Source: Candidatus Zixiibacteriota bacterium
GTDB lineage: Bacteria > Zixibacteria > MSB-5A5 > GN15 > FEB-12
Assembly: GCA_034439475.1 (NCBI GenBank)
Contig: JAWXAN010000070.1
Span: forward strand, 26,906 to 90,905
Direction of reading: 5' to 3'
Length of the DNA stretch: 64,000 nt
Part shown: positions 4,590 through 35,536 of the stretch, piece after piece
Position numbering within the stretch: position 1 is the stretch's first letter
Layout of the letters: every line of letters begins with the position of its first letter
Made by a program: the position numbers and the translations under genes
Notes under the pieces: generated by a model
Database searches by the model: none
The model's input: the letters and a program-made list of their open reading frames with translations, nothing else
What the model was told of the DNA's origin: nothing

Positions 4590-5774
4590 TCAGCTCTGCT
4601 TCTGCTGAAACTGCTCGAGCGTTTCTATCAATTTATCGATATCTGATTCATCATTGAAGAGATGAACCGAGACCCTGATTGAACCCTCGCGGGTCACCAG
4701 AATGATCCCGGCCTTAAGTATCATCTTGTGAAGCTCTTCAAACTTCGGACAGGTGAAAGTGAAAATAGCCGAACGGTGTTTCTCCTCAAGCGATGAAGTG
4801 ACAGTATAATATCCGCTGGACTTTACATAGTCGGCCAGCCGGTCAATGAGGACATGATTGTGTTTCTGAATGTTCTCAATTCCCAAATCAAGAAACAGAT
4901 TCGCGCTTGCCTTCATGCCAAGGATATTGAGCACGGCATAATAGCCCAACTCATATTTCTGGGCCGAATCAAAGTAAGGCCTATCGTAATGAAACAAGTC
5001 CCCAAATTTCATTTCCCAATCGACTCCCAGCCAGCTCATAAATGGAATGCCGAGCCGTTTGCGGATTTGGTCAGAAAGGTAGAAAAAGCCGCAACCCTGG
5101 GGAGCAAGAAGCCATTTTTGACAGCCCGAAGTGAAAATATCAATTCCGATCTTGGTCACATCGACCGGCTCGACTCCCATCCCCTGAATACCGTCCACCA
5201 CAAAATAGATATTATTCTCTTTGCAGATTTTTGATAAAGCCGCCAAATCATTTTTATAGCCATTAAAAAACTGCACGTATGACAGCGACAGTACTTTCGT
5301 CTTGGCCGTGATACATTCCTGAAATTTGTTTATGTCAAACTGTCTATCAGTCGAAGCCACAAAGCGGACCTTCAGACCGCGCGTTTGCGCCGCCGCCTGC
5401 CATGTATAGACTATTGCCGGAAATTCGATATCCGAGACAAGAATTTCATCGCCAGGCTCCAAGGGAAGTCCAAAAGCGGCTATATTAAGCCCAAAACTTG
5501 TATTCAGCCCAAGGCCAATTTGGCGACTATCTGCGCCAACAAGTGTAGCATAATCGCCTCGTAGCTGTTCTGCTGCTTCAAAGGTATCATGAGAATCATC
5601 CCGGTCCGCCGCGAGTCTGACGGCAATATTGGCTTCGATAGCTTTTTGCACGGGTGTGCAAAATGGTCCATACGAAGCAGAGTTAAAGTAGCTGATTGAA
5701 TTCGTGTGAGGAAAAAGCAGCCTCGCCTGGCTGAATTTGTCCATCACTACTTTGTGGGTTGATACTTGCATCAT
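4590..5774 (-). CDS. Class V aminotransferase-fold PLP enzyme (cysteine desulfurase/epimerase-like)
   Basis: 394 aa with the PLP-lysine context FTSGCQKWLLAPQGCG. Its start overlaps the upstream gene by 4 nt (ATGA). Confidence 0.75.
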   Translation of the reverse strand: MMQVSTHKVVMDKFSQARLLFPHTNSISYFNSASYGPFCTPVQKAIEANIAVRLAADRDDSHDTFEAAEQLRGDYATLVGADSRQIGLGLNTSFGLNIAAFGLPLEPGDEILVSDIEFPAIVYTWQAAAQTRGLKVRFVASTDRQFDINKFQECITAKTKVLSLSYVQFFNGYKNDLAALSKICKENNIYFVVDGIQGMGVEPVDVTKIGIDIFTSGCQKWLLAPQGCGFFYLSDQIRKRLGIPFMSWLGVDWEMKFGDLFHYDRPYFDSAQKYELGYYAVLNILGMKASANLFLDLGIENIQKHNHVLIDRLADYVKSSGYYTVTSSLEEKHRSAIFTFTCPKFEELHKMILKAGIILVTREGSIRVSVHLFNDESDIDKLIETLEQFQQKQS

Positions 5775-6190
5775 AACAGATAAACATACCCGATAATTAT
5801 TAAAGAACCGCCAAGTTTTATCAGTAGGCTAAGCATCAGAAATAAGAGCCATGAGAGTGGAAGCTTCAATCGTACCGAAAGGCTCATCAATGCCGGAGCC
5901 GCGCCAACAAGGAAAGCAAACAACGCAGCGGCCATTGCGGCCCGAGTCCCGGAAAAAGGGAGAACAAATGCAAAAAATCCGTAGGCGAGGGTCGGGATGA
6001 CCACAAAAAAGAGTGATTCCATCATGAAATTCATCAACCACCAGACACCAGAAGATTCCTCGAGGATTTCAGATGGAATTGATTCCGTCAGCCGTAGTTT
6101 TTTCGATACATATTCGCTGAGAAGCGAGATGATTAGGAGATAAGCCCCTGCTGCGATCAGGCAGTAGATCAGCAGGGTCGAGGAAATCAT
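5771..6190 (-). CDS. Small integral membrane protein (about 4 TM), function unknown
   Basis: 139 aa with four hydrophobic stretches. The 4-nt overlaps with both neighbours imply translational coupling. Confidence 0.6.
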   Translation of the reverse strand: MISSTLLIYCLIAAGAYLLIISLLSEYVSKKLRLTESIPSEILEESSGVWWLMNFMMESLFFVVIPTLAYGFFAFVLPFSGTRAAMAAALFAFLVGAAPALMSLSVRLKLPLSWLLFLMLSLLIKLGGSLIIIGYVYLL

Positions 6191-7179
6191 TTAATCCATC
6201 CCCGCTCTTTGTACCAGTCGAAAGTGTCCTTCACTCCGCGCTCGAATGGAATAGAGGATTCAAATCCGAGCACGTCACGGGCTTTGTCGGTCGAGACCGA
6301 CCACGGGGCGAGCAGTTCATTCGCCTTTTCGCGAGTGAGCATCGGCGTAGCGCGAACAGTTCGAAATCCCAGTTCAGAAATGGCAGCGATCCCCTCAAAC
6401 AGCCAACCCGGCATGGGAAGTTTCAGCGCATTTTTCCCGCTTGCAGTTTCAATAGCGCTCATCATTTCTGACATTGTATAAGCGCGGTTCTCCGAAATGA
6501 AAAAAACCGAACCGGAGGCCGCTTTCGATACAGCAGCAAGATAGACGCCACGGCATAGATCGTCTACATGGACTAACTGAATTGGCCGTTCAGGATCCCC
6601 AAACATCGGTTTTATACGGCATTTGACGGTCTGAAAAATTGTCAGGATTTCTCTATCCCCAGGACCATAAACACCGGATGGGCGAATGATAAGAATAGGC
6701 AGTGTATCGGTATAGCGGGCGATAACCCTCTCGGCAGCAAGTTTCGAGCTGCCATAGGTAGTAATCGGAAGGGGCATGTCATTTTCTTTCGATGGGCGCC
6801 CGCCTATTGAAGGGCCAGCAACTGCAAGCGACGACAGATAGATGACATTTTTGACTTTCGGATTGTGTTGTGTGATCGCTTCGAGTAGATTGAATGTCCC
6901 GCGTTCATTTACCTCAAAAAAGGTTTTGTCCTCTTTCGCCTTTACCAGCCCGGCGTTATGAATAATATAGTCTGCATGTTTGACCATATCAATCAAAGTA
7001 GCCGGATCGCAAATATCACCGTAGCGATACTCGATAGAAACTCCATTGAGCAACTCAAGATTCGCCGTAGGGCGCACCCCGGCTATTATATGGAAGCCGC
7101 GTGTTGAGAACTCACGACAAAGCCGTGAGCCTATAAACCCGTTTGCGCCGGTGATGAGTACGGTTGGCTTTTTATCCAT
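6187..7179 (-). CDS. NAD(P)-dependent epimerase/dehydratase (extended SDR)
   Basis: Rossmann motif VLITGANGFIGSRL and catalytic YGSSK (Y-x3-K). The ORF extends to 7206, but the MDKKPTVLITG start at 7179 gives a normal N-terminus. Confidence 0.85.
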   Translation of the reverse strand: MDKKPTVLITGANGFIGSRLCREFSTRGFHIIAGVRPTANLELLNGVSIEYRYGDICDPATLIDMVKHADYIIHNAGLVKAKEDKTFFEVNERGTFNLLEAITQHNPKVKNVIYLSSLAVAGPSIGGRPSKENDMPLPITTYGSSKLAAERVIARYTDTLPILIIRPSGVYGPGDREILTIFQTVKCRIKPMFGDPERPIQLVHVDDLCRGVYLAAVSKAASGSVFFISENRAYTMSEMMSAIETASGKNALKLPMPGWLFEGIAAISELGFRTVRATPMLTREKANELLAPWSVSTDKARDVLGFESSIPFERGVKDTFDWYKERGWIK

Positions 7180-7231
7180 GCGATAAATGTAGCTCATTGA
7201 ACACAAGCCGACAAGTAGTTATCTTTTGGCT

Positions 7232-7582
7232 ATGCGATTCGGGTACACGTTGGTAAAAGACGCCCATGGCCGTATTGAGTACAAACAGCGGCCTGGGAAG
7301 AAAAAGCATTTCCATCTGGCGGTTTTTATTGACGAGCCCGATGACATTTTGAGCGCAATTAGACTTGTGGAATATCAACTGCATGAGACCTTCAAAGAAC
7401 CCCTTCGCCACAATGACAATCGTGACGTGAGATTTGTCGAGACGTTTTTTACCTGGGGAAAGTTCAACATAGAAGCAACTGTCCTCTTTCTTAATGGCGC
7501 ACGTGAAACATATAACTTCTACCTCGATTATGATTTACCGTCCGATTATGGACTTAATTATATCCAGCTTCCGGTGGAATAG
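7232..7582 (+). CDS. Stand-alone prokaryotic YEATS-like (pYEATS) domain protein
   Basis: HFHLAVFIDEPDDILSAIRLVEYQLHETFKEPLRHNDNRDVRFVETFFTWGKFNIEATVLFLNG..NFYLDYDL aligns block for block with human AF9 YEATS as I recall it (HDWMVFVRGP...VEKVVFHLHESFPRPKRV...ESGYAGFILPIEVYFKN...RFDYDLFL). The ORF-track start at 7226 is TTG; the first ATG is at 7232. Confidence 0.65.
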   Translation: MRFGYTLVKDAHGRIEYKQRPGKKKHFHLAVFIDEPDDILSAIRLVEYQLHETFKEPLRHNDNRDVRFVETFFTWGKFNIEATVLFLNGARETYNFYLDYDLPSDYGLNYIQLPVE

Positions 7583-7724
7583 TTGAGTGATTTCTGTACA
7601 AAATCGATGTAGAAAAGATGGTAATTCGGATTAACTCCAGGTATTATAAAGGAGCGATGTGTCATTGAAAATATCACTTGCCAAAGCAACACCAAGGCTG
7701 TTTCTTTTTTTCGTTAATATAGAT

Positions 7725-7804
7725 CCGTTGGGGGTGGCGTAATACGACCGCCTGAGATCATACCCCCTAGACCTGATTCGGGTAATGCCGACGTAGGGAA
7801 ACGG
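7725..7804 (+). promoter_or_regulatory. TPP (THI-box) riboswitch aptamer
   Basis: ccgtt-GGGGTGGCG..CGCCTGAGA..ACCCCC..ACCTGAT.CGGGTAATGCCGACGTAGGGAA-acgg. All conserved TPP-aptamer blocks are present in canonical order, closed by a P1 helix ccgtt/aacgg. The aptamer lies about 100 nt upstream of the TonB-receptor ATG. Confidence 0.9.
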
Positions 7805-7903
7805 AGATGCTTACTACATCCCCTCCTGCCTAATTATGGGCAGACCTATCGACACAGGACGGAATCTTGCAAAACTTTTACCGTTTTACGCGAGGTTACT
7901 GTC

Positions 7904-10447
7904 ATGAAATCTTCTTCAATCGCCGGATTGTTATCCGGCCTGTGGCTGGCGTTTATGCCATCCCCATCTCAAAGCGCGTCCTTTTCCGGAACCGTGGTTG
8001 ACCCCGAACGGCATCCGCTCAGGTCAGTTACAGTTGCCGGGAATGTGAGAGGCCGCGGGGCAATCACTGACTCGCTCGGGCATTTCTTCATCGTCTCAGC
8101 CGAGGCGGCACCAGACTCGCCGCAACCGGGCGTTGCCCAGCTTACTCATCTGACTTTTTCATCGGTCGGATTTGCCCCGCGAAGATTCGCTGTGAGTCAG
8201 TTGCCCGACACCATTATTCTCTCTCCAATTTATTACGAGGGGAAAGAGATAACTGTCACTGCCAACCGGGCAAAAGCCGGAGTGACACCAGTTGCCTTCG
8301 AAAACATCTCGAGGGATGAAATCATGCGGGATTACACCGTCGGCGACCTGCCAACACTATTGCAGACATCTCCAAATCTTTATTCTTACTCCGATGCCGG
8401 TGGCGGACTTGGCTATACATATACCCAGATTCGTGGATTCGACGATAAACGTATAGCGACCTATCTCAATGGCGTTCCGCTCAACGACCCCGAAGACCAA
8501 TATGCCTATTGGGTCGATTTGCCGGATTTCACCTCAAGTGTGAGTGATGTCCAGATCCAACGCGGTGTAGGGAATTCCCTTTATGGCGATGCCTCATTCG
8601 GGGGCTCAATCAACGTCGTCAGCGGCATCCTCGGGAAAGAACGCATGACTTCAGTCACATCGGGTTATGGAGAATTTTCAAGTAATAGCAAGGCAATCGG
8701 CAAAACGACAAAACAGACATTTGATTATGCGTCTGGTTTAATTGACGGCCAGTGGGCTTTTGGCGGACGGTTTTCAAAACAGAAAAGCGACGGCTACCGC
8801 GAACAAAGCTGGGTGGACAGCTGGGCATACCACCTCTCTCTTGCGCGTCTCGATCCGAATATGACGACTGAACTTCAGTTATTCGGCGGGCCGACAAGTC
8901 TGCATCTGGCGTATTATGGGATTCCGCGTGATACACCAAACCGACGCTCCAACCCGCTCACCTACGAAAACGAAACCGATAATTTTAACCAGCCGCACTA
9001 TCATCTGCACAACACCTACCTGCTGTCCCAGAACGCGACATTGTACAACACCCTCTATTACATTCGCGGACGCGGTTATTTTGAGCAATATATCGGAGAT
9101 GCGCTCTACAGCGATTATAATATAGATTCCACATTTACCGACAGCCTCAAAGCAAACGGGGATCTCATCCGAAGACAATCTGTTGCCAAATATCAAATCG
9201 GCTGGAATCCACGGTTTGATCTCGTTCATTCCCGCGGTAGTCATTCACTCGGCGGTTCGTACTATTTCTTCGAATCTGACCACATTGGGACTGTGGAATG
9301 GAGCGAAAACAGCAATAGATTAGTCCTGCCGGGACATCGATACTACCAATATTACGGCAAGAAGCATGTGGCCTCGTTCTATGCGCAGGAGTATTTCAAA
9401 ATCACTGACAGACTTTCAACCCAGGCGACTGCGCAGCTTCGCTATCAGACCTACAGCTTTAATCAGGAAAGATTCGGCGCGTTTCAAGGCTATCAATATG
9501 ACGTCCACTGGCTTTTCCTTTCCCCTCGTCTCGGATTTAATTATTTGTTGTCTGACAACGAGGAATCAAAGCTGAACGTGTATACGAACTTCGCTCTCGC
9601 CTCGCGCACGCCGACCGATGCCGCGCTTTATGATGCCAGCGATCCGTATATTACCCCATCGTTTGAAATCGACGATATCTTGCTTACCGCGTCGGGCGAT
9701 TCGGCGGTTGTCTTTGGTGACCCGACTGCCCGCTCAGAGCGCGTTTATGATCTGGAGATTGGAAGCGTGTACCGAACCCAAAAATATTCATTCGGCGTAA
9801 ATCTTTTCAGGATGGATTTCAAAGACGAGATTATCCCCTATGGTGGCATAAACCCAAGCACTGGTCAAGCGATAACGGTCAATGCCGACGGGTCGGTCAG
9901 ATCGGGGATTGAATTGAACGGAAGCATTAACCTGACAAAACCTCTGAGTCTAAGCGGAAGTCTTGCTTTCAACCGCTATCGCATCAAAGATTTCGTGGAT
10001 ACAATCGATGTTTATGACGGAACCGGCGCCTTTTTCGGTCAAGCTGAAGTAAATCTCAATAATAGACGGGGACTTGGTTTCCCCGACATGCTCGGCTCAT
10101 TCGTAGCGGATCTGCATAAAAATAGTTGGCGTCTGACATACCGCCTGCAGATGGTCGGAAAACAATATCTTGAGCTTGTCAATATTGAATCGCTCGCTAT
10201 CGAAGCATTCACGGTCTCATCACTTTCTGCGCAGCTGACCCTGAAAAATGCTCTTAATATCGGCAACCTGACTCTATCCGGAACGATCGACAATCTTTTT
10301 GATCTCAAATACGAGCGTTCCGGCTATGGTTGGAATTATGGCGTAATAGACCCATCCACTGGCGGGGTAACTCTTGCCGGGGACGCAGAATATTATGTCG
10401 CTGCAGAACGGTCATTTTATGCGCAACTTCGCCTCGAACTGTTTTAA
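7904..10447 (+). CDS. TonB-dependent outer-membrane receptor (with N-terminal carboxypeptidase-regulatory-like domain)
   Basis: 847 aa with a signal peptide, a plug region (ITVTANR...FENISRDEIMR...YTQIRGFDDKRIATYLNGVPLNDPE) and a long beta-barrel ending in the OMP-typical ...QLRLELF. Confidence 0.9.
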   Translation: MKSSSIAGLLSGLWLAFMPSPSQSASFSGTVVDPERHPLRSVTVAGNVRGRGAITDSLGHFFIVSAEAAPDSPQPGVAQLTHLTFSSVGFAPRRFAVSQLPDTIILSPIYYEGKEITVTANRAKAGVTPVAFENISRDEIMRDYTVGDLPTLLQTSPNLYSYSDAGGGLGYTYTQIRGFDDKRIATYLNGVPLNDPEDQYAYWVDLPDFTSSVSDVQIQRGVGNSLYGDASFGGSINVVSGILGKERMTSVTSGYGEFSSNSKAIGKTTKQTFDYASGLIDGQWAFGGRFSKQKSDGYREQSWVDSWAYHLSLARLDPNMTTELQLFGGPTSLHLAYYGIPRDTPNRRSNPLTYENETDNFNQPHYHLHNTYLLSQNATLYNTLYYIRGRGYFEQYIGDALYSDYNIDSTFTDSLKANGDLIRRQSVAKYQIGWNPRFDLVHSRGSHSLGGSYYFFESDHIGTVEWSENSNRLVLPGHRYYQYYGKKHVASFYAQEYFKITDRLSTQATAQLRYQTYSFNQERFGAFQGYQYDVHWLFLSPRLGFNYLLSDNEESKLNVYTNFALASRTPTDAALYDASDPYITPSFEIDDILLTASGDSAVVFGDPTARSERVYDLEIGSVYRTQKYSFGVNLFRMDFKDEIIPYGGINPSTGQAITVNADGSVRSGIELNGSINLTKPLSLSGSLAFNRYRIKDFVDTIDVYDGTGAFFGQAEVNLNNRRGLGFPDMLGSFVADLHKNSWRLTYRLQMVGKQYLELVNIESLAIEAFTVSSLSAQLTLKNALNIGNLTLSGTIDNLFDLKYERSGYGWNYGVIDPSTGGVTLAGDAEYYVAAERSFYAQLRLELF

Positions 10448-10453
10448 CGTCCA

Positions 10454-11845
10454 ATGCACCCTCTCGATATTGGCATAATTGCCTTCTATGCCGCCGCTAT
10501 TTTATGGTTGGGGTTTCGCACACGACTCCAGCCCGAAAGTTCGACGAGCGAACTCATTCTTGGCGGACGTATGCTCACTGTGCCAGCTTTTGCCGCAAGT
10601 CTGGTCTCGACGTGGTACGGAGGAATACTCGGCATCGGAGAATACACCTACCGCTATGGCCTTTCGAACTGGCTCGTTTTCGGACTGCCGTATTATGTGG
10701 CGGCATTTCTCTTCGCGATTTTTCTGGCCAAAAAGGCTCGTCAGTCGGAGTTGCTGACTATTCCTGACCGCCTTGCAAAAATTTATGACACCAAAACCGC
10801 CGTCCTTGGGGCGTCGATTATCTACCTCATGACCGTCCCCGGCGCGTATATACTTATTCTGGGCGTTCTCTGCCAAACACTTTTCGGCTGGCCGTTTTGG
10901 ACTGGCGCGGTCGCGGGGAGTCTCTTTTCAATTATCTATCTGTTTTTGGGAGGCTTCAAATCGGTCGTACGCACCGATATCTTTCAGACAGTCCTCATGT
11001 TCCTTGGATTCATCGTTCTTGTGATTTATCTTATCGCCACATACGGCGGATTTGAGTTTTTGCAGTCGCGTCTGCCCGAAAATCATCTGACTTGGCATGG
11101 CGGCCAACCGACATTCTATATTGCGACATGGTATGTCATCGCCCTTGCGACCTTGACCGAACCGGCTTTTTTTCAGCGTTGTTATGCCGCAAAATCAGGT
11201 TCCGTCGCGCGGAATGGCATCTTTCTTTCCATTGGCTTTTGGGCCTTGTTTGATTTTTTGACGACAACCTGTGGTTTGTATGCGCGCGTCCTTATGCCCG
11301 ATTTGGCTGACCCGGTGACATCTTTTCCGGCGCTCGCCCAGCAGATACTTCCCGTTGGAGTGTTGGGGTTGTTTGTTCTGGCGATGTTTGCAACAGCGCA
11401 ATCGACCGCAGATTCGTATTTTTTTATCGCCGCTACCACATTCAGTAATGATATAATTGGCCGCCTGCGAAAGCTCGACAATTCGTCCATTTTGAAATTC
11501 ACACATATCGGATTGTGGCTGACCGCCGTTCTGGCCATTGTCTGTGTGCTTGTATTTCGCTCAGTCGTTGATATCTGGTATGCTTTCGGCTCGATTGGCA
11601 CACCCGCCCTTCTGATACCTGTCTTTTTCAGTTTTGTCGGCAATCGGCGATTATCAGGCACATCGGCCTTTTGGACTATCGTATTGTCCGGCTCGTTATC
11701 CGCGGTCTGGTATTTATCCCAGTATTGGACGCCGGATAATAGCTTCTGGTTCGGCTTGCAGCCTATTTTCCCCGGGCTTGCCCTTTCTCTGTTCATCTAT
11801 GGACTCTTTGCAAAACGGACGCCATCGCCGTTGCCTTCAGGATAA
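10454..11845 (+). CDS. Sodium:solute symporter (SSS) family transporter
   Basis: 463 aa with about 12-13 TM segments. The N-terminal region LILGGRMLTVPAFAASLVSTWYGGILGIGEYTYRYGLSNW is SSS-like. It starts 6 nt after the TonB-receptor stop, so it is probably co-transcribed. Confidence 0.8.
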   Translation: MHPLDIGIIAFYAAAILWLGFRTRLQPESSTSELILGGRMLTVPAFAASLVSTWYGGILGIGEYTYRYGLSNWLVFGLPYYVAAFLFAIFLAKKARQSELLTIPDRLAKIYDTKTAVLGASIIYLMTVPGAYILILGVLCQTLFGWPFWTGAVAGSLFSIIYLFLGGFKSVVRTDIFQTVLMFLGFIVLVIYLIATYGGFEFLQSRLPENHLTWHGGQPTFYIATWYVIALATLTEPAFFQRCYAAKSGSVARNGIFLSIGFWALFDFLTTTCGLYARVLMPDLADPVTSFPALAQQILPVGVLGLFVLAMFATAQSTADSYFFIAATTFSNDIIGRLRKLDNSSILKFTHIGLWLTAVLAIVCVLVFRSVVDIWYAFGSIGTPALLIPVFFSFVGNRRLSGTSAFWTIVLSGSLSAVWYLSQYWTPDNSFWFGLQPIFPGLALSLFIYGLFAKRTPSPLPSG

Positions 11846-34033: not shown

Positions 34034-35536
34034 TTGACATTTGAACGGAAAGCAGTTACTTTCGCAAGTCACCTGCATAAAGAAAAGGACCAAGTGGAAA
34101 ACCAGGATCATGACATTCGAAAACCAGCAGTGGCTGGGACATTTTATCCTTCCAATCCGGTCGAGCTGACTAAGACGATTGCTGGATTTTACGCCGATGT
34201 CGACAAGGTCACGCTTGGCGGACGACCTATGGGTCTCATCGCTCCCCATTCCGGTTATCCATATTCTGGTAAGATTGCCGCGAAAGCATTCAAGCTTCTC
34301 GAAGGCGAGCACTTTGATACGGTGGTCATCGTCTCTCCCTCGCACACCGTTTTCTTTCAAGGTTCATCCATCTACGGCGGGGCGGGCTACCAGACCCCGA
34401 TTGGCGTCATTGAAACAGATATTGCGCTTGCCCAGAAAATTGCCGCTATTAATCCGAGCGCGGTTTACTTTTCGAATATGGGGCATTCAAGCGGCACAGC
34501 TCGCGGCGAACACTCACTCGAAGTACAGCTTCCATTCCTACAAATCGTACTCGGCAAATTCAAACTCGTCGCGATAGTTATGGGTGATCAGGACCCGGAC
34601 TCAGGCCGATTGCTCGGTGAGACACTCGCCGCCGCGCTCAAAGGCACGAATACATTGCTTGTTGCAAGTACCGATCTGTCGCACTTTCATGCTGAAAAAG
34701 AAGCGCGACGACTCGACTTTGCGGTTCAGGATGCCATCGAAAAATATGACACTCAGCTTCTAATCGATACCCTCGACAGCGGGAGAGGCGAAGCCTGCGG
34801 AGGCGGCGCAGTGGCCTCGGTAATGCTGGCATCCAAACGGCTCGGCGGAAGCACAGTCAAATTTCTTGACTATGGGACATCCGGCTCTGTAACCGGAGAT
34901 TTTGATGATGTTGTCGGCTATATGAGCGCGGCAATTGTCTCGGGTCGTCCTCCGGTTATGGAGAAGACTATTTTGGGCGCAATTCCTCTCCGAATAAAGG
35001 AAGCGAAAGACTTGACATCCGAGGACAAACGGCAAATTCGTGAGATCGCCCGAATGGCAATCGAAACGCGCGCCGACGGCAAATCATTTGTTCCGCCGCT
35101 GAGCGAGCGGCTCAATGTGCAATTCGGTCTGTTTATGCGCGTCCATGTCGATGACTCGGTCCATCTTCCGTATGGACGCATCCGGCCTGAGGGTACTATT
35201 TTGCATGCTTCGGCGGAGATTGCGCAGTTGGCGGCATTCGAAGACCCGCGCTATGACCCGCTCGCACCTGAGCAATTACAATCATACGGTCTTGATATCT
35301 ATGTTCTCTCGAAGCTTGAACGCTTGCGTGAATTTGATGATATCAAAATCGGCCGTGATGGACTCATGGTAAAGCTTGATATGCACTCCGCGCTCATGCT
35401 TCCGGTTGAAGCCGCGGATAAAAGCTGGACTGCAGGTGAATTTTTTGAGCAAGTCTGCCTCAAAGCTGGTCTTCCACGCGGCGCATATAAAGAACGCTAC
35501 GCCGAAGTGTATAAATTCACCACCGAAGTCTGCTGA
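34034..35536 (+). CDS. MEMO-family (AmmeMemoRadiSam protein B-like) fused to a divergent AMMECR1 domain
   Basis: The N-terminal half has RKPAVAGTFYPSNPVEL...GLIAPHSGYPYSG...VVIVSPSH, which is MEMO. The C-terminal half has GRDGLMVKLDMHSALMLPVEA..W..EFFEQVCLKAGLP, which is AMMECR1. The start is uncertain (TTG at 34034 or GTG at 34094). Confidence 0.75.
   Translation: MTFERKAVTFASHLHKEKDQVENQDHDIRKPAVAGTFYPSNPVELTKTIAGFYADVDKVTLGGRPMGLIAPHSGYPYSGKIAAKAFKLLEGEHFDTVVIVSPSHTVFFQGSSIYGGAGYQTPIGVIETDIALAQKIAAINPSAVYFSNMGHSSGTARGEHSLEVQLPFLQIVLGKFKLVAIVMGDQDPDSGRLLGETLAAALKGTNTLLVASTDLSHFHAEKEARRLDFAVQDAIEKYDTQLLIDTLDSGRGEACGGGAVASVMLASKRLGGSTVKFLDYGTSGSVTGDFDDVVGYMSAAIVSGRPPVMEKTILGAIPLRIKEAKDLTSEDKRQIREIARMAIETRADGKSFVPPLSERLNVQFGLFMRVHVDDSVHLPYGRIRPEGTILHASAEIAQLAAFEDPRYDPLAPEQLQSYGLDIYVLSKLERLREFDDIKIGRDGLMVKLDMHSALMLPVEAADKSWTAGEFFEQVCLKAGLPRGAYKERYAEVYKFTTEVC

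What the first reader, a model, noticed from the sequence alone, without database searches (positions are those of the whole stretch)
7232..7582. Stand-alone bacterial YEATS-like domain with the eukaryotic reader-pocket residues retained
The 117-aa protein aligns along its whole length with eukaryotic YEATS domains as I remember AF9. The conserved blocks are VEYQLHETFKEP vs VVFHLHESFPRP, TWGKFNIEATVLF vs GYAGFILPIEVYF, and NFYLDYDL vs RFDYDLFL. YEATS domains are acyl-lysine readers in eukaryotic chromatin. Prokaryotic versions (pYEATS) have, to my knowledge, mostly been noted as domains fused to or next to conflict-system effectors. Here the domain is a single-domain protein with no obvious partner, sitting between a metabolic operon and a riboswitch. 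The His, Ser/Thr and Phe of the LH(E)(S/T)F motif and the aromatic-Gly pair are kept, which suggests a functional ligand pocket.
Basis: partly seen in the sequence, partly recalled or inferred. Interest (0 to 1): 0.55.

Follow-up and report, generated by a model that had tools for sequence, protein, structure and literature searches.

The report
Solo bacterial YEATS reader-domain protein
This small gene encodes a complete bacterial copy of the YEATS domain, the fold that eukaryotes use to read acylated lysines, and it is a well-conserved lone member of an already described prokaryotic family whose ligand is still unknown.

Summary
ORF 7232-7582 (+) encodes a 116-aa protein that passes the curated cut-offs of both Pfam pYEATS (51.4 bits against 26.9) and eukaryotic YEATS (32.9 against 22). 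Its AlphaFold model (pLDDT 92.7) matches only YEATS structures in the top 50 entries (Z 9.2-10.8). The cage residues H51, T53, F54, W75, G76 and F78 align with Yaf9 H67, T69, Y70, W89, G90 and F92.

Neither feature is unusual. These residues are kept in 166-190 of 197 pYEATS domains, and 54 of the 150 best representatives are 140 aa or shorter.

What is particular to this gene:
- It is a single-gene insertion beside a core SDR-membrane-aminotransferase cluster.
- It occurs in 12 of 108 genomes of one family.
- It is clustered on the tree and under strong purifying selection (dN/dS 0.04-0.06).
- Its nearest relatives (39-41% identity) are always paired with a SLATT/DUF4231-like membrane protein. 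That partner was not found here.

It is most likely an orphan acyl-amide binding module. I file it as a new member of a known kind, of modest interest.

The parts
7232..7582 (+). pYEATS gene: 116 codons plus a TAG stop. The whole protein is one YEATS Ig-like beta-sandwich.
   Evidence: ORF and sequence. Pfam PF20305 and PF03366 both above cut-off. Model pLDDT 92.7. YEATS-only structure matches. 12 other proteins of 110-116 aa.
7307..7309 (+). Codon of H26. It aligns with the His at index 34 of the Yaf9 chain (residue 39 by the offset derived). It lies in the first pocket loop.
   Evidence: Alignment. H in 13 of 13 rows of A1. Across 197 pYEATS domains the column is variable: H 31, Y 31, W 29, R 22, gaps 49. 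The role of this His in succinyl-lysine reading by GAS41 and Yaf9 is recalled, not read.
7379..7393 (+). L50-H51-E52-T53-F54, the first cage motif. It equals Yaf9 L-H67-D-T69-Y70.
   Evidence: In Yaf9, T69 hydrogen-bonds the acyl-lysine N-epsilon and Y70 is one wall of the aromatic sandwich (PMC5758897, passages). Conserved in A1: H 13/13, T/S 13/13, F 13/13.
7451..7465 (+). T74-W75-G76-K77-F78, the second cage motif. It equals Yaf9 G-W89-G90-E91-F92. K77 occupies the '+2' selectivity position.
   Evidence: Yaf9 W89 is the other wall, W89A abolishes binding, and the +2 residue tunes which site is read (PMC5758897). W, G, K and F are each 13/13 in A1. K at this column occurs in only 5 of 197 domains overall.
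6187..7206 (-). Context, not part of the feature: a divergent NAD-dependent epimerase/dehydratase (SDR). Its likely true start is the ATG at 7179, which leaves 52 bp to the pYEATS start.
   Evidence: Pfam PF01370 at 7.7e-33. Homologues are 330-335 aa. Adjacent to pYEATS in 8 of 8 ortholog loci.
5771..6190 (-). Context: a 139-aa membrane protein with no Pfam family, translationally coupled within the SDR cluster.
   Evidence: Present in 98 of 108 genomes of the family, so it is core, unlike pYEATS.
4590..5774 (-). Context: a class-V aminotransferase-like gene, the last gene of the cluster.
   Evidence: Pfam PF00266 at 4.7e-45. Adjacent in 7 of 8 ortholog loci; not found in L006.
7720..7816 (+). 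Context: a TPP riboswitch that controls the downstream TonB-dependent receptor (7904-10447) and an SSF transporter (10454-11845). Unrelated to pYEATS.
   Evidence: Rfam RF00059 at 73.5 bits. Pfam. This downstream neighbour is shared by only 1 of 8 ortholog loci, L008.

Best explanation
The gene encodes a genuine, functional member of the prokaryotic YEATS (pYEATS) family. It is a cytoplasmic 116-aa protein that consists of nothing but the YEATS Ig-like sandwich.

Shown here:
- Family membership and fold.
- An intact aromatic sandwich: F54 and W75 as walls, with H51, T53, G76 and F78 around them.
- Strong purifying selection.
- Occurrence as a single-gene insertion in one clade of one bacterial family. 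The record titles of relatives name Zixibacteria or Ignavibacteriales.
- No fused or linked effector.

Inferred:
- It binds the amide of an N-acylated amine in that cage. The ligand is most likely an acyl-lysine side chain on a protein, or a small N-acyl amine.
- It acts by occupancy, as a reader, adaptor or sequestering protein, because it has no catalytic or output domain.
- Its nearest relatives are the sensor halves of two-gene SLATT(DUF4231)+pYEATS modules. This lineage is therefore most simply an orphaned sensor that was kept for a function of its own. The long stem branch and the subfamily-specific Lys at the selectivity position fit a change of ligand or target.
For: Membership and fold.

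Cage mapping: the alignment plus the Yaf9 structure and mutagenesis passages (PMC5758897). The cage residues are 13/13 in the orthologous group.

Selection: dN/dS is 0.041 (dS 0.55) and 0.060 (dS 0.44) in the two closest pairs. The flanking core genes in the same pairs give 0.023-0.070. Orthologs are 60-67% identical to the window protein. The adjacent SDR is 53-60% and the membrane protein 40-55%.

Distribution: orthologs (E<=1e-53) occur in 12 of 108 genomes of the family including the window's own, and in none of the other 177 genomes of the phylum searched. On a tree of the linked core genes, the 8 pYEATS-bearing rows among 26 need only 2 changes. The shuffled mean is 7.0, and 0 of 500 shuffles were as low.

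Single-gene indel: in 5 of 8 sampled genomes without pYEATS, a Memo-AMMECR1 gene abuts the SDR gene on the same strand. In L001, L003 and L006 the pYEATS gene lies between these two genes on the other strand.

No partner:
- One pYEATS copy in a 98.7%-complete genome.
- No PADLOC or NCBIfam hit.
- No DUF4231 or A4-profile hit in the genome (both empty answers carry the tool's caveat that nothing rang anywhere).
- No longer fused form.

Sister modules: a roughly 200-aa protein abuts the pYEATS start in 6 of 6 loci with room upstream. Pfam DUF4231 matches 3 of these 6 at E<=0.1, and SLATT_4 matches 1. The own group is a clade (SH-aLRT 97) on a stem of 1.11, inside a 21-row set that holds all six SLATT-linked rows.
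Against: No binding was measured, and no model coordinates were available to check the geometry of the cage. The pocket argument rests on alignment and fold.

The direction 'orphaned from a SLATT module' is not shown. The domain tree is short (119 columns), built in quick mode and midpoint-rooted. The grouping with SLATT-linked rows has only 80% SH-aLRT.

Contexts are known for only six sister loci. Seventeen other solo relatives in that tree have unknown contexts.

An unlinked partner elsewhere in the genome cannot be excluded by these searches.

The constant position next to the SDR cluster (8 of 8 loci) could still reflect a functional tie.

Eukaryotic YEATS domains have been reported to bind nucleic acids as well (abstract of PMC13383808, seen in the listing). 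Acyl-amide is therefore not the only possible ligand, although the pI of 5.9 does not favour nucleic acid.
Confidence: 0.55

Rival explanations
1. It is still an immune or conflict component. On this reading it is a sensor or decoy that works in trans with an unlinked effector, or that soaks up a signal or a modified invader protein, as sponge-type proteins do.
For: The family's usual setting is conflict. Among 50 long representatives scanned there are fusions to TIR, caspase, papain-like peptidase, matrixin, kinase plus Mrr nuclease, TPR and pentapeptide repeats. Other pYEATS genes in the same phylum sit in operons with an EEP nuclease, with DUF4145 plus a Lon-like protease, or with a ClpP-like protease. 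The sister group is paired with a SLATT-like membrane protein. The ParA preprint lists pYEATS among ligand-binding sensor domains of immune systems (passage). The gene is accessory, present in 12 of 108 genomes, and has a slightly lower GC content than the window (44% against 48.5%).
Against: No effector is fused or adjacent, and there is no PADLOC hit. There are no relatives in viral contigs, phage records or plasmids. The gene is clustered on the tree rather than scattered. It evolves as slowly as core genes and shows none of the diversification usual for arms-race genes. There are no mobile-element repeats at its borders.
Confidence: 0.2
2. It works with the divergent SDR, membrane-protein and aminotransferase cluster. 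It might bind an N-acylated amine intermediate or product of that pathway, or an acylated lysine on one of its enzymes, and so modulate the pathway.
For: The SDR and the membrane protein are next to the pYEATS gene in 8 of 8 ortholog loci, and the aminotransferase in 7 of 8. The other flank varies: Memo-AMMECR1, LysE, a methyltransferase or a TonB receptor. Only 52 bp separate the two divergent start codons.
Against: The cluster is core. Its membrane protein is found in 98 of 108 genomes of the family, and in 71 of 73 high-quality ones. pYEATS is in only 12 of 108, so the pathway runs without it. All pYEATS-bearing genomes are related, so a shared position is expected from descent alone. The more distant homologues (L009 to L014) are not next to such genes.
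Confidence: 0.12
3. The cage is a relic. On this reading the protein is used only as an Ig-fold interaction or scaffold module, or it is a gene on its way out.
For: It has no output domain, and no expression data exist.
Against: dN/dS is 0.04-0.06. There are 48 invariant columns, among them every cage residue, across 13 proteins down to 64% identity. The reading frame is intact in all 12 genomes.
Confidence: 0.05

Closest known systems
Pfam PF20305, prokaryotic YEATS (pYEATS) domain family
   Same: The protein scores 51.4 bits against a cut-off of 26.9 over the whole 73-position model. It has the same LH-x-(T/S)-F and WG-x-F motifs as 166-190 of 197 family domains. Single-domain proteins are a common architecture in the family: 54 of the 150 best representatives are <=140 aa.
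   Different: It scores lower than most relatives, which reach 57-85 bits per domain. It belongs to an 'extended' subfamily that is split from typical pYEATS at 98% support. It has no fused or neighbouring effector, unlike the TIR, caspase, peptidase and nuclease contexts. It has an invariant Lys at the +2 selectivity position, which is rare in the family (5 of 197).
SLATT(DUF4231)-like 2TM protein plus solo pYEATS two-gene modules (loci L009, L084, L085, L086, L088, L093)
   Same: The pYEATS proteins have the same length class (115-125 aa) and align end to end at 39-41% identity. They share the N-terminal D..G(R/K)I.Y(K/R) motif and the C-terminal LP.D.G.NY motif. They are the nearest neighbours on the domain tree.
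   Different: In those loci a roughly 200-aa membrane protein abuts the pYEATS start (6 of 6 loci). In the window and its eight ortholog loci the upstream gene is instead a divergent SDR, and no such membrane protein was found in the genome. I found no description of this pairing in the searches. It may still be in print elsewhere.
Eukaryotic YEATS acyl-lysine readers (Yaf9, GAS41/YEATS4, AF9/ENL, Taf14, YEATS2)
   Same: PF03366 scores above its cut-off. Yaf9 is found at E=1.7e-5. The fold matches at Z 9.2-10.8 over about 95-100 residues. Each residue that contacts acetyl-lysine in Yaf9 (T69, Y70, W89, G90) has a counterpart here: T53, F54, W75, G76.
   Different: There are no C-terminal coiled-coil or complex-docking regions, and no histones or chromatin complexes in the host. 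Sequence identity is 16-28% in the Foldseek and VIA alignments. The wall residue is Phe rather than Tyr, so the water-mediated contact of the Yaf9 Y70 hydroxyl cannot be made. Binding has not been tested.

Membership tests
pYEATS (Pfam PF20305) | Profile match at or above the curated gathering score | tested here: met
   51.4 bits against 26.9, E=1e-13, model positions 1-73 of 73. The whole-genome scan gives the same single hit.
pYEATS (Pfam PF20305) | YEATS-type Ig-like beta-sandwich fold | tested here: met
   AF2 model with pLDDT 92.7. All 50 VIA entries are YEATS, with Z 9.2-10.8. All Foldseek rows shown are YEATS.
pYEATS (Pfam PF20305) | Conserved cage motifs LH-x-(S/T)-F and W-G-x-F | tested here: met
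   LHETF at residues 50-54 and WGKF at residues 75-78. Invariant in the orthologous group. Matches the family consensus.
pYEATS (Pfam PF20305) | Usual context: fused to, or in an operon with, conflict-system effector or NTPase domains. This is typical of the family, not a defining property of the domain. | tested here: not met
   Single domain. The neighbours are an SDR cluster and a TPP-riboswitch transport operon. No PADLOC hit.
Eukaryotic YEATS (Pfam PF03366) | Profile match at or above the gathering score | tested here: met
   32.9 bits against 22, E=6.3e-8. This is weaker than the pYEATS match, so the protein is filed under pYEATS.
Eukaryotic YEATS (Pfam PF03366) | Binds acyl-lysine in the aromatic sandwich | not testable with these tools
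   Only the residues could be checked. No model coordinates and no binding assay were available.
SLATT(DUF4231)+pYEATS two-gene module | A roughly 200-aa 2TM SLATT/DUF4231-like gene directly upstream on the same strand | tested here: not met
   The upstream gene is a divergent SDR in the window and in all 8 ortholog loci. Searches of the window's genome with PF14015 and with the partner profile A4 found nothing. Both answers warn that an empty result is weak evidence.

The most novel reading that the evidence does not exclude
This may be a bacterial post-translational-modification reader that has left the immune sphere. On this reading it is a vertically inherited, slowly evolving solo YEATS protein that reads lysine acylation on the cell's own proteins. 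The acyl group could be acidic, such as succinyl. H26 sits where, by my recollection, GAS41 and Yaf9 use a His to contact the succinyl carboxylate, and an invariant Lys lies at the selectivity position. If so, it would be a prokaryotic counterpart of chromatin readers acting in ordinary physiology.
Probability: 0.15. Interest if true: 0.7.

Novelty: new member of a known kind. Interest (0 to 1): 0.3.

Why it matters
To my knowledge no prokaryotic YEATS domain has a demonstrated ligand. The only text in the held library that names pYEATS in prokaryotes is one preprint passage, which calls it a ligand-binding sensor.

A 116-aa, single-domain, confidently modelled and strongly conserved member with a complete cage is about the simplest object on which to find out what bacterial YEATS domains bind. 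The contrast between this orphan and its SLATT-paired relatives offers a natural pair for asking how the sensor couples to an effector. As a genome feature, however, it is an expected member of a catalogued family.

Tried and rejected
- Homodimer test with complex prediction (two copies, alignment A1). Hand-ins were not forwarded. The tool was declared unavailable. Nothing was folded, so oligomeric state is untested.
- NCBIfam and PADLOC gave no family.
- Viral contigs, phage records and plasmids gave no relative at the sensitivity of those searches.
- The 'longer' protein search found no fused form. The tool itself calls this weak evidence.
The narrower alignments A3 and A1 were used instead.
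- The promoter and terminator scan of 6900-7950 gave nothing above the shuffled expectation.
- The repeat search at the gene's borders found only terminator-like hairpins and no mobile-element ends.
- Expression: no RNA holder was listed, and no reads were laid.
- Literature:
  - 'pYEATS' occurs in 5 held papers, of which 3 were listed and only one concerns prokaryotes.
  - The eLife 2020 and 2021 conflict-system papers do not contain the word in their main text. The two held supplements of the 2020 paper do not contain it either.
  - A search for 'CATASP' was useless.
  - The GAS41 succinyl-lysine paper is not held, and the two reviews opened do not name the His. That point is therefore recall.
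- Considered and dropped: a nucleic-acid-binding role (pI 5.9), and a signal peptide or membrane location (none is visible in the sequence).

Full report
**What is there.** On the + strand, an ORF runs from the ATG at 7232 to the TAG at 7580-7582 and encodes 116 residues. A TTG two codons upstream is also open. In alignment A1, 12 of the 13 rows begin at the position of the ATG; P0013, of 110 aa, lacks the first six columns.

**Family and fold.**
- Pfam places the protein in PF20305 (pYEATS, E=1e-13, 51.4 bits, cut-off 26.9, the whole 73-position model). More weakly, it also matches PF03366 (eukaryotic YEATS, 32.9 bits, cut-off 22).
- NCBIfam and PADLOC have nothing.
- Against PDB sequences the best hit is yeast Yaf9 (E=1.7e-5), followed by GAS41, Sas5 and Taf14.
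- An AlphaFold2 model built on the 13-sequence alignment has mean pLDDT 92.7 and pTM 0.83 and is a beta sandwich with one short helix.
- All Foldseek rows shown are YEATS domains.
- In the VIA-align second look, all 50 entries are YEATS domains, AF9 and ENL included. They have Z 9.2-10.8 and rmsd 2.3-3.8 A over 91-102 residues, and they cover model residues 1 to 103-111.

The whole protein is therefore one YEATS domain. The parts outside the short Pfam model are the first and last strands of the fold.

**The pocket.** The HMMER alignment to Yaf9 has an index offset of +5 for chain 3fk3_A. This follows from the 8-171 construct of 6axj described in PMC5758897. With that offset, H51, T53, F54, W75, G76, K77 and F78 fall on Yaf9 H67, T69, Y70, W89, G90, E91 and F92, and H26 falls on the His at residue 39.

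The passages of PMC5758897 that I read state the following:
- The acetyl group is sandwiched between Y70 and W89.
- It hydrogen-bonds the W89 backbone amide.
- The lysine N-epsilon bonds T69.
- W89A abolishes binding.
- The residue two places after the Trp sets site preference.

All of these positions are invariant in the 13 orthologs, with T or S at 53. This is not special to the protein. In 197 domains from the 150 best representatives, the counts are H 181, T/S 186, F 181, W 166, G 183 and F 190. Lys at the +2 position is unusual. It is found in 13 of 13 orthologs but in only 5 of 197 domains. The 55%-identical representative P0014 has Ile there.

**How common solo forms are.** A profile search of 1.84 billion representatives gave 897 proteins at E<=1e-3 and 84 at E<=1e-10. 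Of the best 150:
- 54 are 140 aa or shorter, 15 are 141-200 aa, 41 are 201-260 aa and 40 are longer.
- 43 carry two domains and one carries three.

I scanned 50 of the 96 representatives longer than 140 aa. They include fusions to papain-like peptidase C1 (seven proteins of about 600 aa with tandem pYEATS), TIR, caspase, matrixin, a kinase with an Mrr nuclease, TPR, pentapeptide repeats and a peptidoglycan-binding domain. This agrees with the one prokaryote-related mention of pYEATS that I could find in the held library. That is a preprint passage listing it among ligand-binding sensor domains of conflict systems.

**Surroundings.** Upstream and divergent lie three genes:
- An NAD-dependent epimerase/dehydratase (6187-7206; likely start at 7179, 52 bp from the pYEATS start).
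- A 139-aa membrane protein without a Pfam family.
- A class-V aminotransferase-like gene.

Downstream lie a TPP riboswitch (7720-7816), a TonB-dependent receptor and an SSF transporter.

In eight ortholog loci from species-representative genomes (60-67% identity; record titles name Zixibacteria in four, Ignavibacteriales in three and 'bacterium' in one), the SDR and the membrane protein are next to pYEATS in 8 of 8 and the aminotransferase in 7 of 8. The downstream side differs: Memo-AMMECR1 in L001, L002, L003 and L006, LysE in L005, an unknown protein and a methyltransferase in L007, and the TonB receptor only in L008. L004 ends at the contig edge.

**Is the neighbour a partner?** Probably not.
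- The membrane protein of the cluster is found in 98 of 108 genomes of the family, and in 71 of 73 high-quality ones.
- pYEATS orthologs (E<=1e-53) are in 12 of 108 genomes, spread over six genera, and in none of the other 177 genomes of the phylum searched. Those others carry tandem or other pYEATS types instead.
- In 5 of 8 sampled genomes without pYEATS, a 477-516-aa Memo-AMMECR1 gene lies directly upstream of the SDR gene on the same strand, 44-101 bp away. The other three have different neighbours.
- In L001, L003 and L006 the pYEATS gene sits between exactly these two genes, in the opposite orientation.

The gene is therefore a single-gene indel of roughly 0.4-0.5 kb in a conserved gene string. 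I saw no terminal repeats.

On a maximum-likelihood tree of the three linked core proteins (26 genomes; four of the 30 loci were dropped as incomplete), the eight pYEATS-bearing genomes fall in one 11-row part and need two changes. The shuffled mean is 7.0, and 0 of 500 shuffles were as low. Deep support is weak, and the tree comes from linked genes. This fits one gain followed by loss, and vertical inheritance.

**Selection.** In the two closest ortholog pairs, dN/dS is 0.041 (dS 0.55) and 0.060 (dS 0.44). The three flanking core genes in the same pairs give 0.023-0.070. Across the eight loci the pYEATS protein is more conserved (60-67%) than the SDR (53-60%) and the membrane protein (40-55%). 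The gene is functional and is not evolving like an arms-race gene.

**Nearest relatives outside the orthologous group.** A Pyrinomonadaceae locus (L009, 41% identity) and metagenome loci found with a profile of that tier carry 115-125-aa solo pYEATS proteins that align end to end with ours.
- In 6 of 6 loci with enough upstream DNA (L009, L084, L085, L086, L088, L093), a roughly 200-aa protein ends at, or overlaps, the pYEATS start.
- These partners are only 21-35% identical between distant loci, yet they are always there.
- Pfam finds DUF4231 in 3 of the 6 (L009 above its cut-off) and SLATT_4 in one.

SLATT domains are, from my knowledge of the literature, predicted two-helix membrane effectors of conflict systems.

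On a quick domain tree of 42 rows, the window's group is a clade (SH-aLRT 97) on a long stem (1.11). It lies inside a 21-row set (support 80) that contains all six SLATT-linked rows. The extended subfamily as a whole, which also contains two TIR fusions, is split from typical pYEATS at 98.

Neither PF14015 nor a profile of the six partners finds anything in the window's 98.7%-complete genome. Both empty answers come with the tool's warning that they are weak evidence.

Other pYEATS genes of the same phylum lie in operons with an EEP nuclease, with DUF4145 and a Lon-like protease, or with a ClpP-like protease and DUF488.

**Reading.** The protein is a true pYEATS. With a complete cage under strong constraint and no other domain, the most likely mechanism is binding of an acyl-amide ligand in the F54/W75 sandwich, with action by occupancy. 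The history that best fits is a sensor that lost, or never had, the SLATT-type partner of its nearest relatives and was kept in one clade for a role of its own. The direction of that change is not shown.

**Rivals.** The three rivals are an immune sensor or decoy that works in trans, a tie to the SDR cluster, and a relic cage. They are set out with their odds in the fields above.

**What could not be done.**
- No coordinates were available to measure the cage.
- The complex predictor never ran.
- No RNA run was listed.
- The paper that defined pYEATS could not be located in the held library. Its authors' view of solo forms and of any SLATT pairing is therefore unknown to me.

**Verdict.** The feature is an ordinary but clean member of a catalogued family: a new member of a known kind, with interest about 0.3. 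Its main value is as a minimal test object for what bacterial YEATS domains bind.

Noticed in passing
L009:976-2006; L084:4393-5354; L085:2421-3390; L086:4381-5354; L088:4393-5345; L093:4390-5345: This is a recurrent two-gene module. A roughly 200-aa DUF4231/SLATT-like 2TM protein ends at, or overlaps, the start of a 115-125-aa solo pYEATS (6 of 6 loci with room upstream). The membrane partner carries a conserved C-terminal G-x-D-A-P-D...V-G-R tail in four of the six. I found no description of this pairing in my paper searches.
   Followed up: partly
L010:7366-7683; L011:802-1116; L013:7824-8231; L012:7710-8282: Stand-alone pYEATS genes occur in archaeal MAGs, with record titles naming Thorarchaeota (two), an uncultured archaeon and Halobacteriales. 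Their scores on the eukaryotic YEATS model are higher (50-59 bits) than the window protein's (33 bits). In L010 and L011 a 174-aa unknown gene lies just upstream and a PLD-like nuclease gene follows nearby. An RHS-repeat giant gene follows in L012.
   Followed up: partly
window 7720-7816, 7904-10447, 10454-11845: A TPP riboswitch (73.5 bits) precedes a TonB-dependent receptor and a sodium:solute symporter-family transporter. This looks like a thiamine or thiamine-precursor uptake operon. The same block follows pYEATS in only one relative (L008).
   Followed up: partly
window 34034-35533 (+): This is a Memo-AMMECR1 fusion gene of 500 aa. In relatives it lies directly upstream of the SDR, membrane and aminotransferase cluster on the same strand. 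In this genome it lies about 27 kb away, so the string has been rearranged here.
   Followed up: partly
proteins P0037, P0043, P0050, P0054, P0071, P0077, P0145 (representative library): These proteins of about 600 aa combine an N-terminal papain-like peptidase C1 domain with two or three C-terminal pYEATS domains. This architecture recurred among the 50 long representatives scanned.
   Followed up: no
L097:4117-7129; L099:1407-5943; L100:4398-6619: Other pYEATS genes of the same phylum sit in compact same-strand operons. L097 has an unknown gene, a tandem pYEATS, another unknown gene and an EEP nuclease/phosphatase. L099 has an unknown gene, a tandem pYEATS, DUF4145 and a Lon-like protease. 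L100 has a ClpP-like SDH protease, pYEATS and DUF488.
   Followed up: no
L014:7887-8819 and 9370-10956: In a Bacteroidia MAG, a 311-aa pYEATS protein lies in a same-strand run of unknown genes that includes DUF2589 and a protein with a C-terminal XOO_2897-like deaminase domain. This resembles a polymorphic-toxin setting.
   Followed up: no
window 7170-7184 and 7224-7238: A 15-nt direct repeat (80% identical, 54 nt apart) covers the two divergent start codons, that of the SDR gene on the - strand and that of the pYEATS gene on the + strand. It is probably chance.
   Followed up: no
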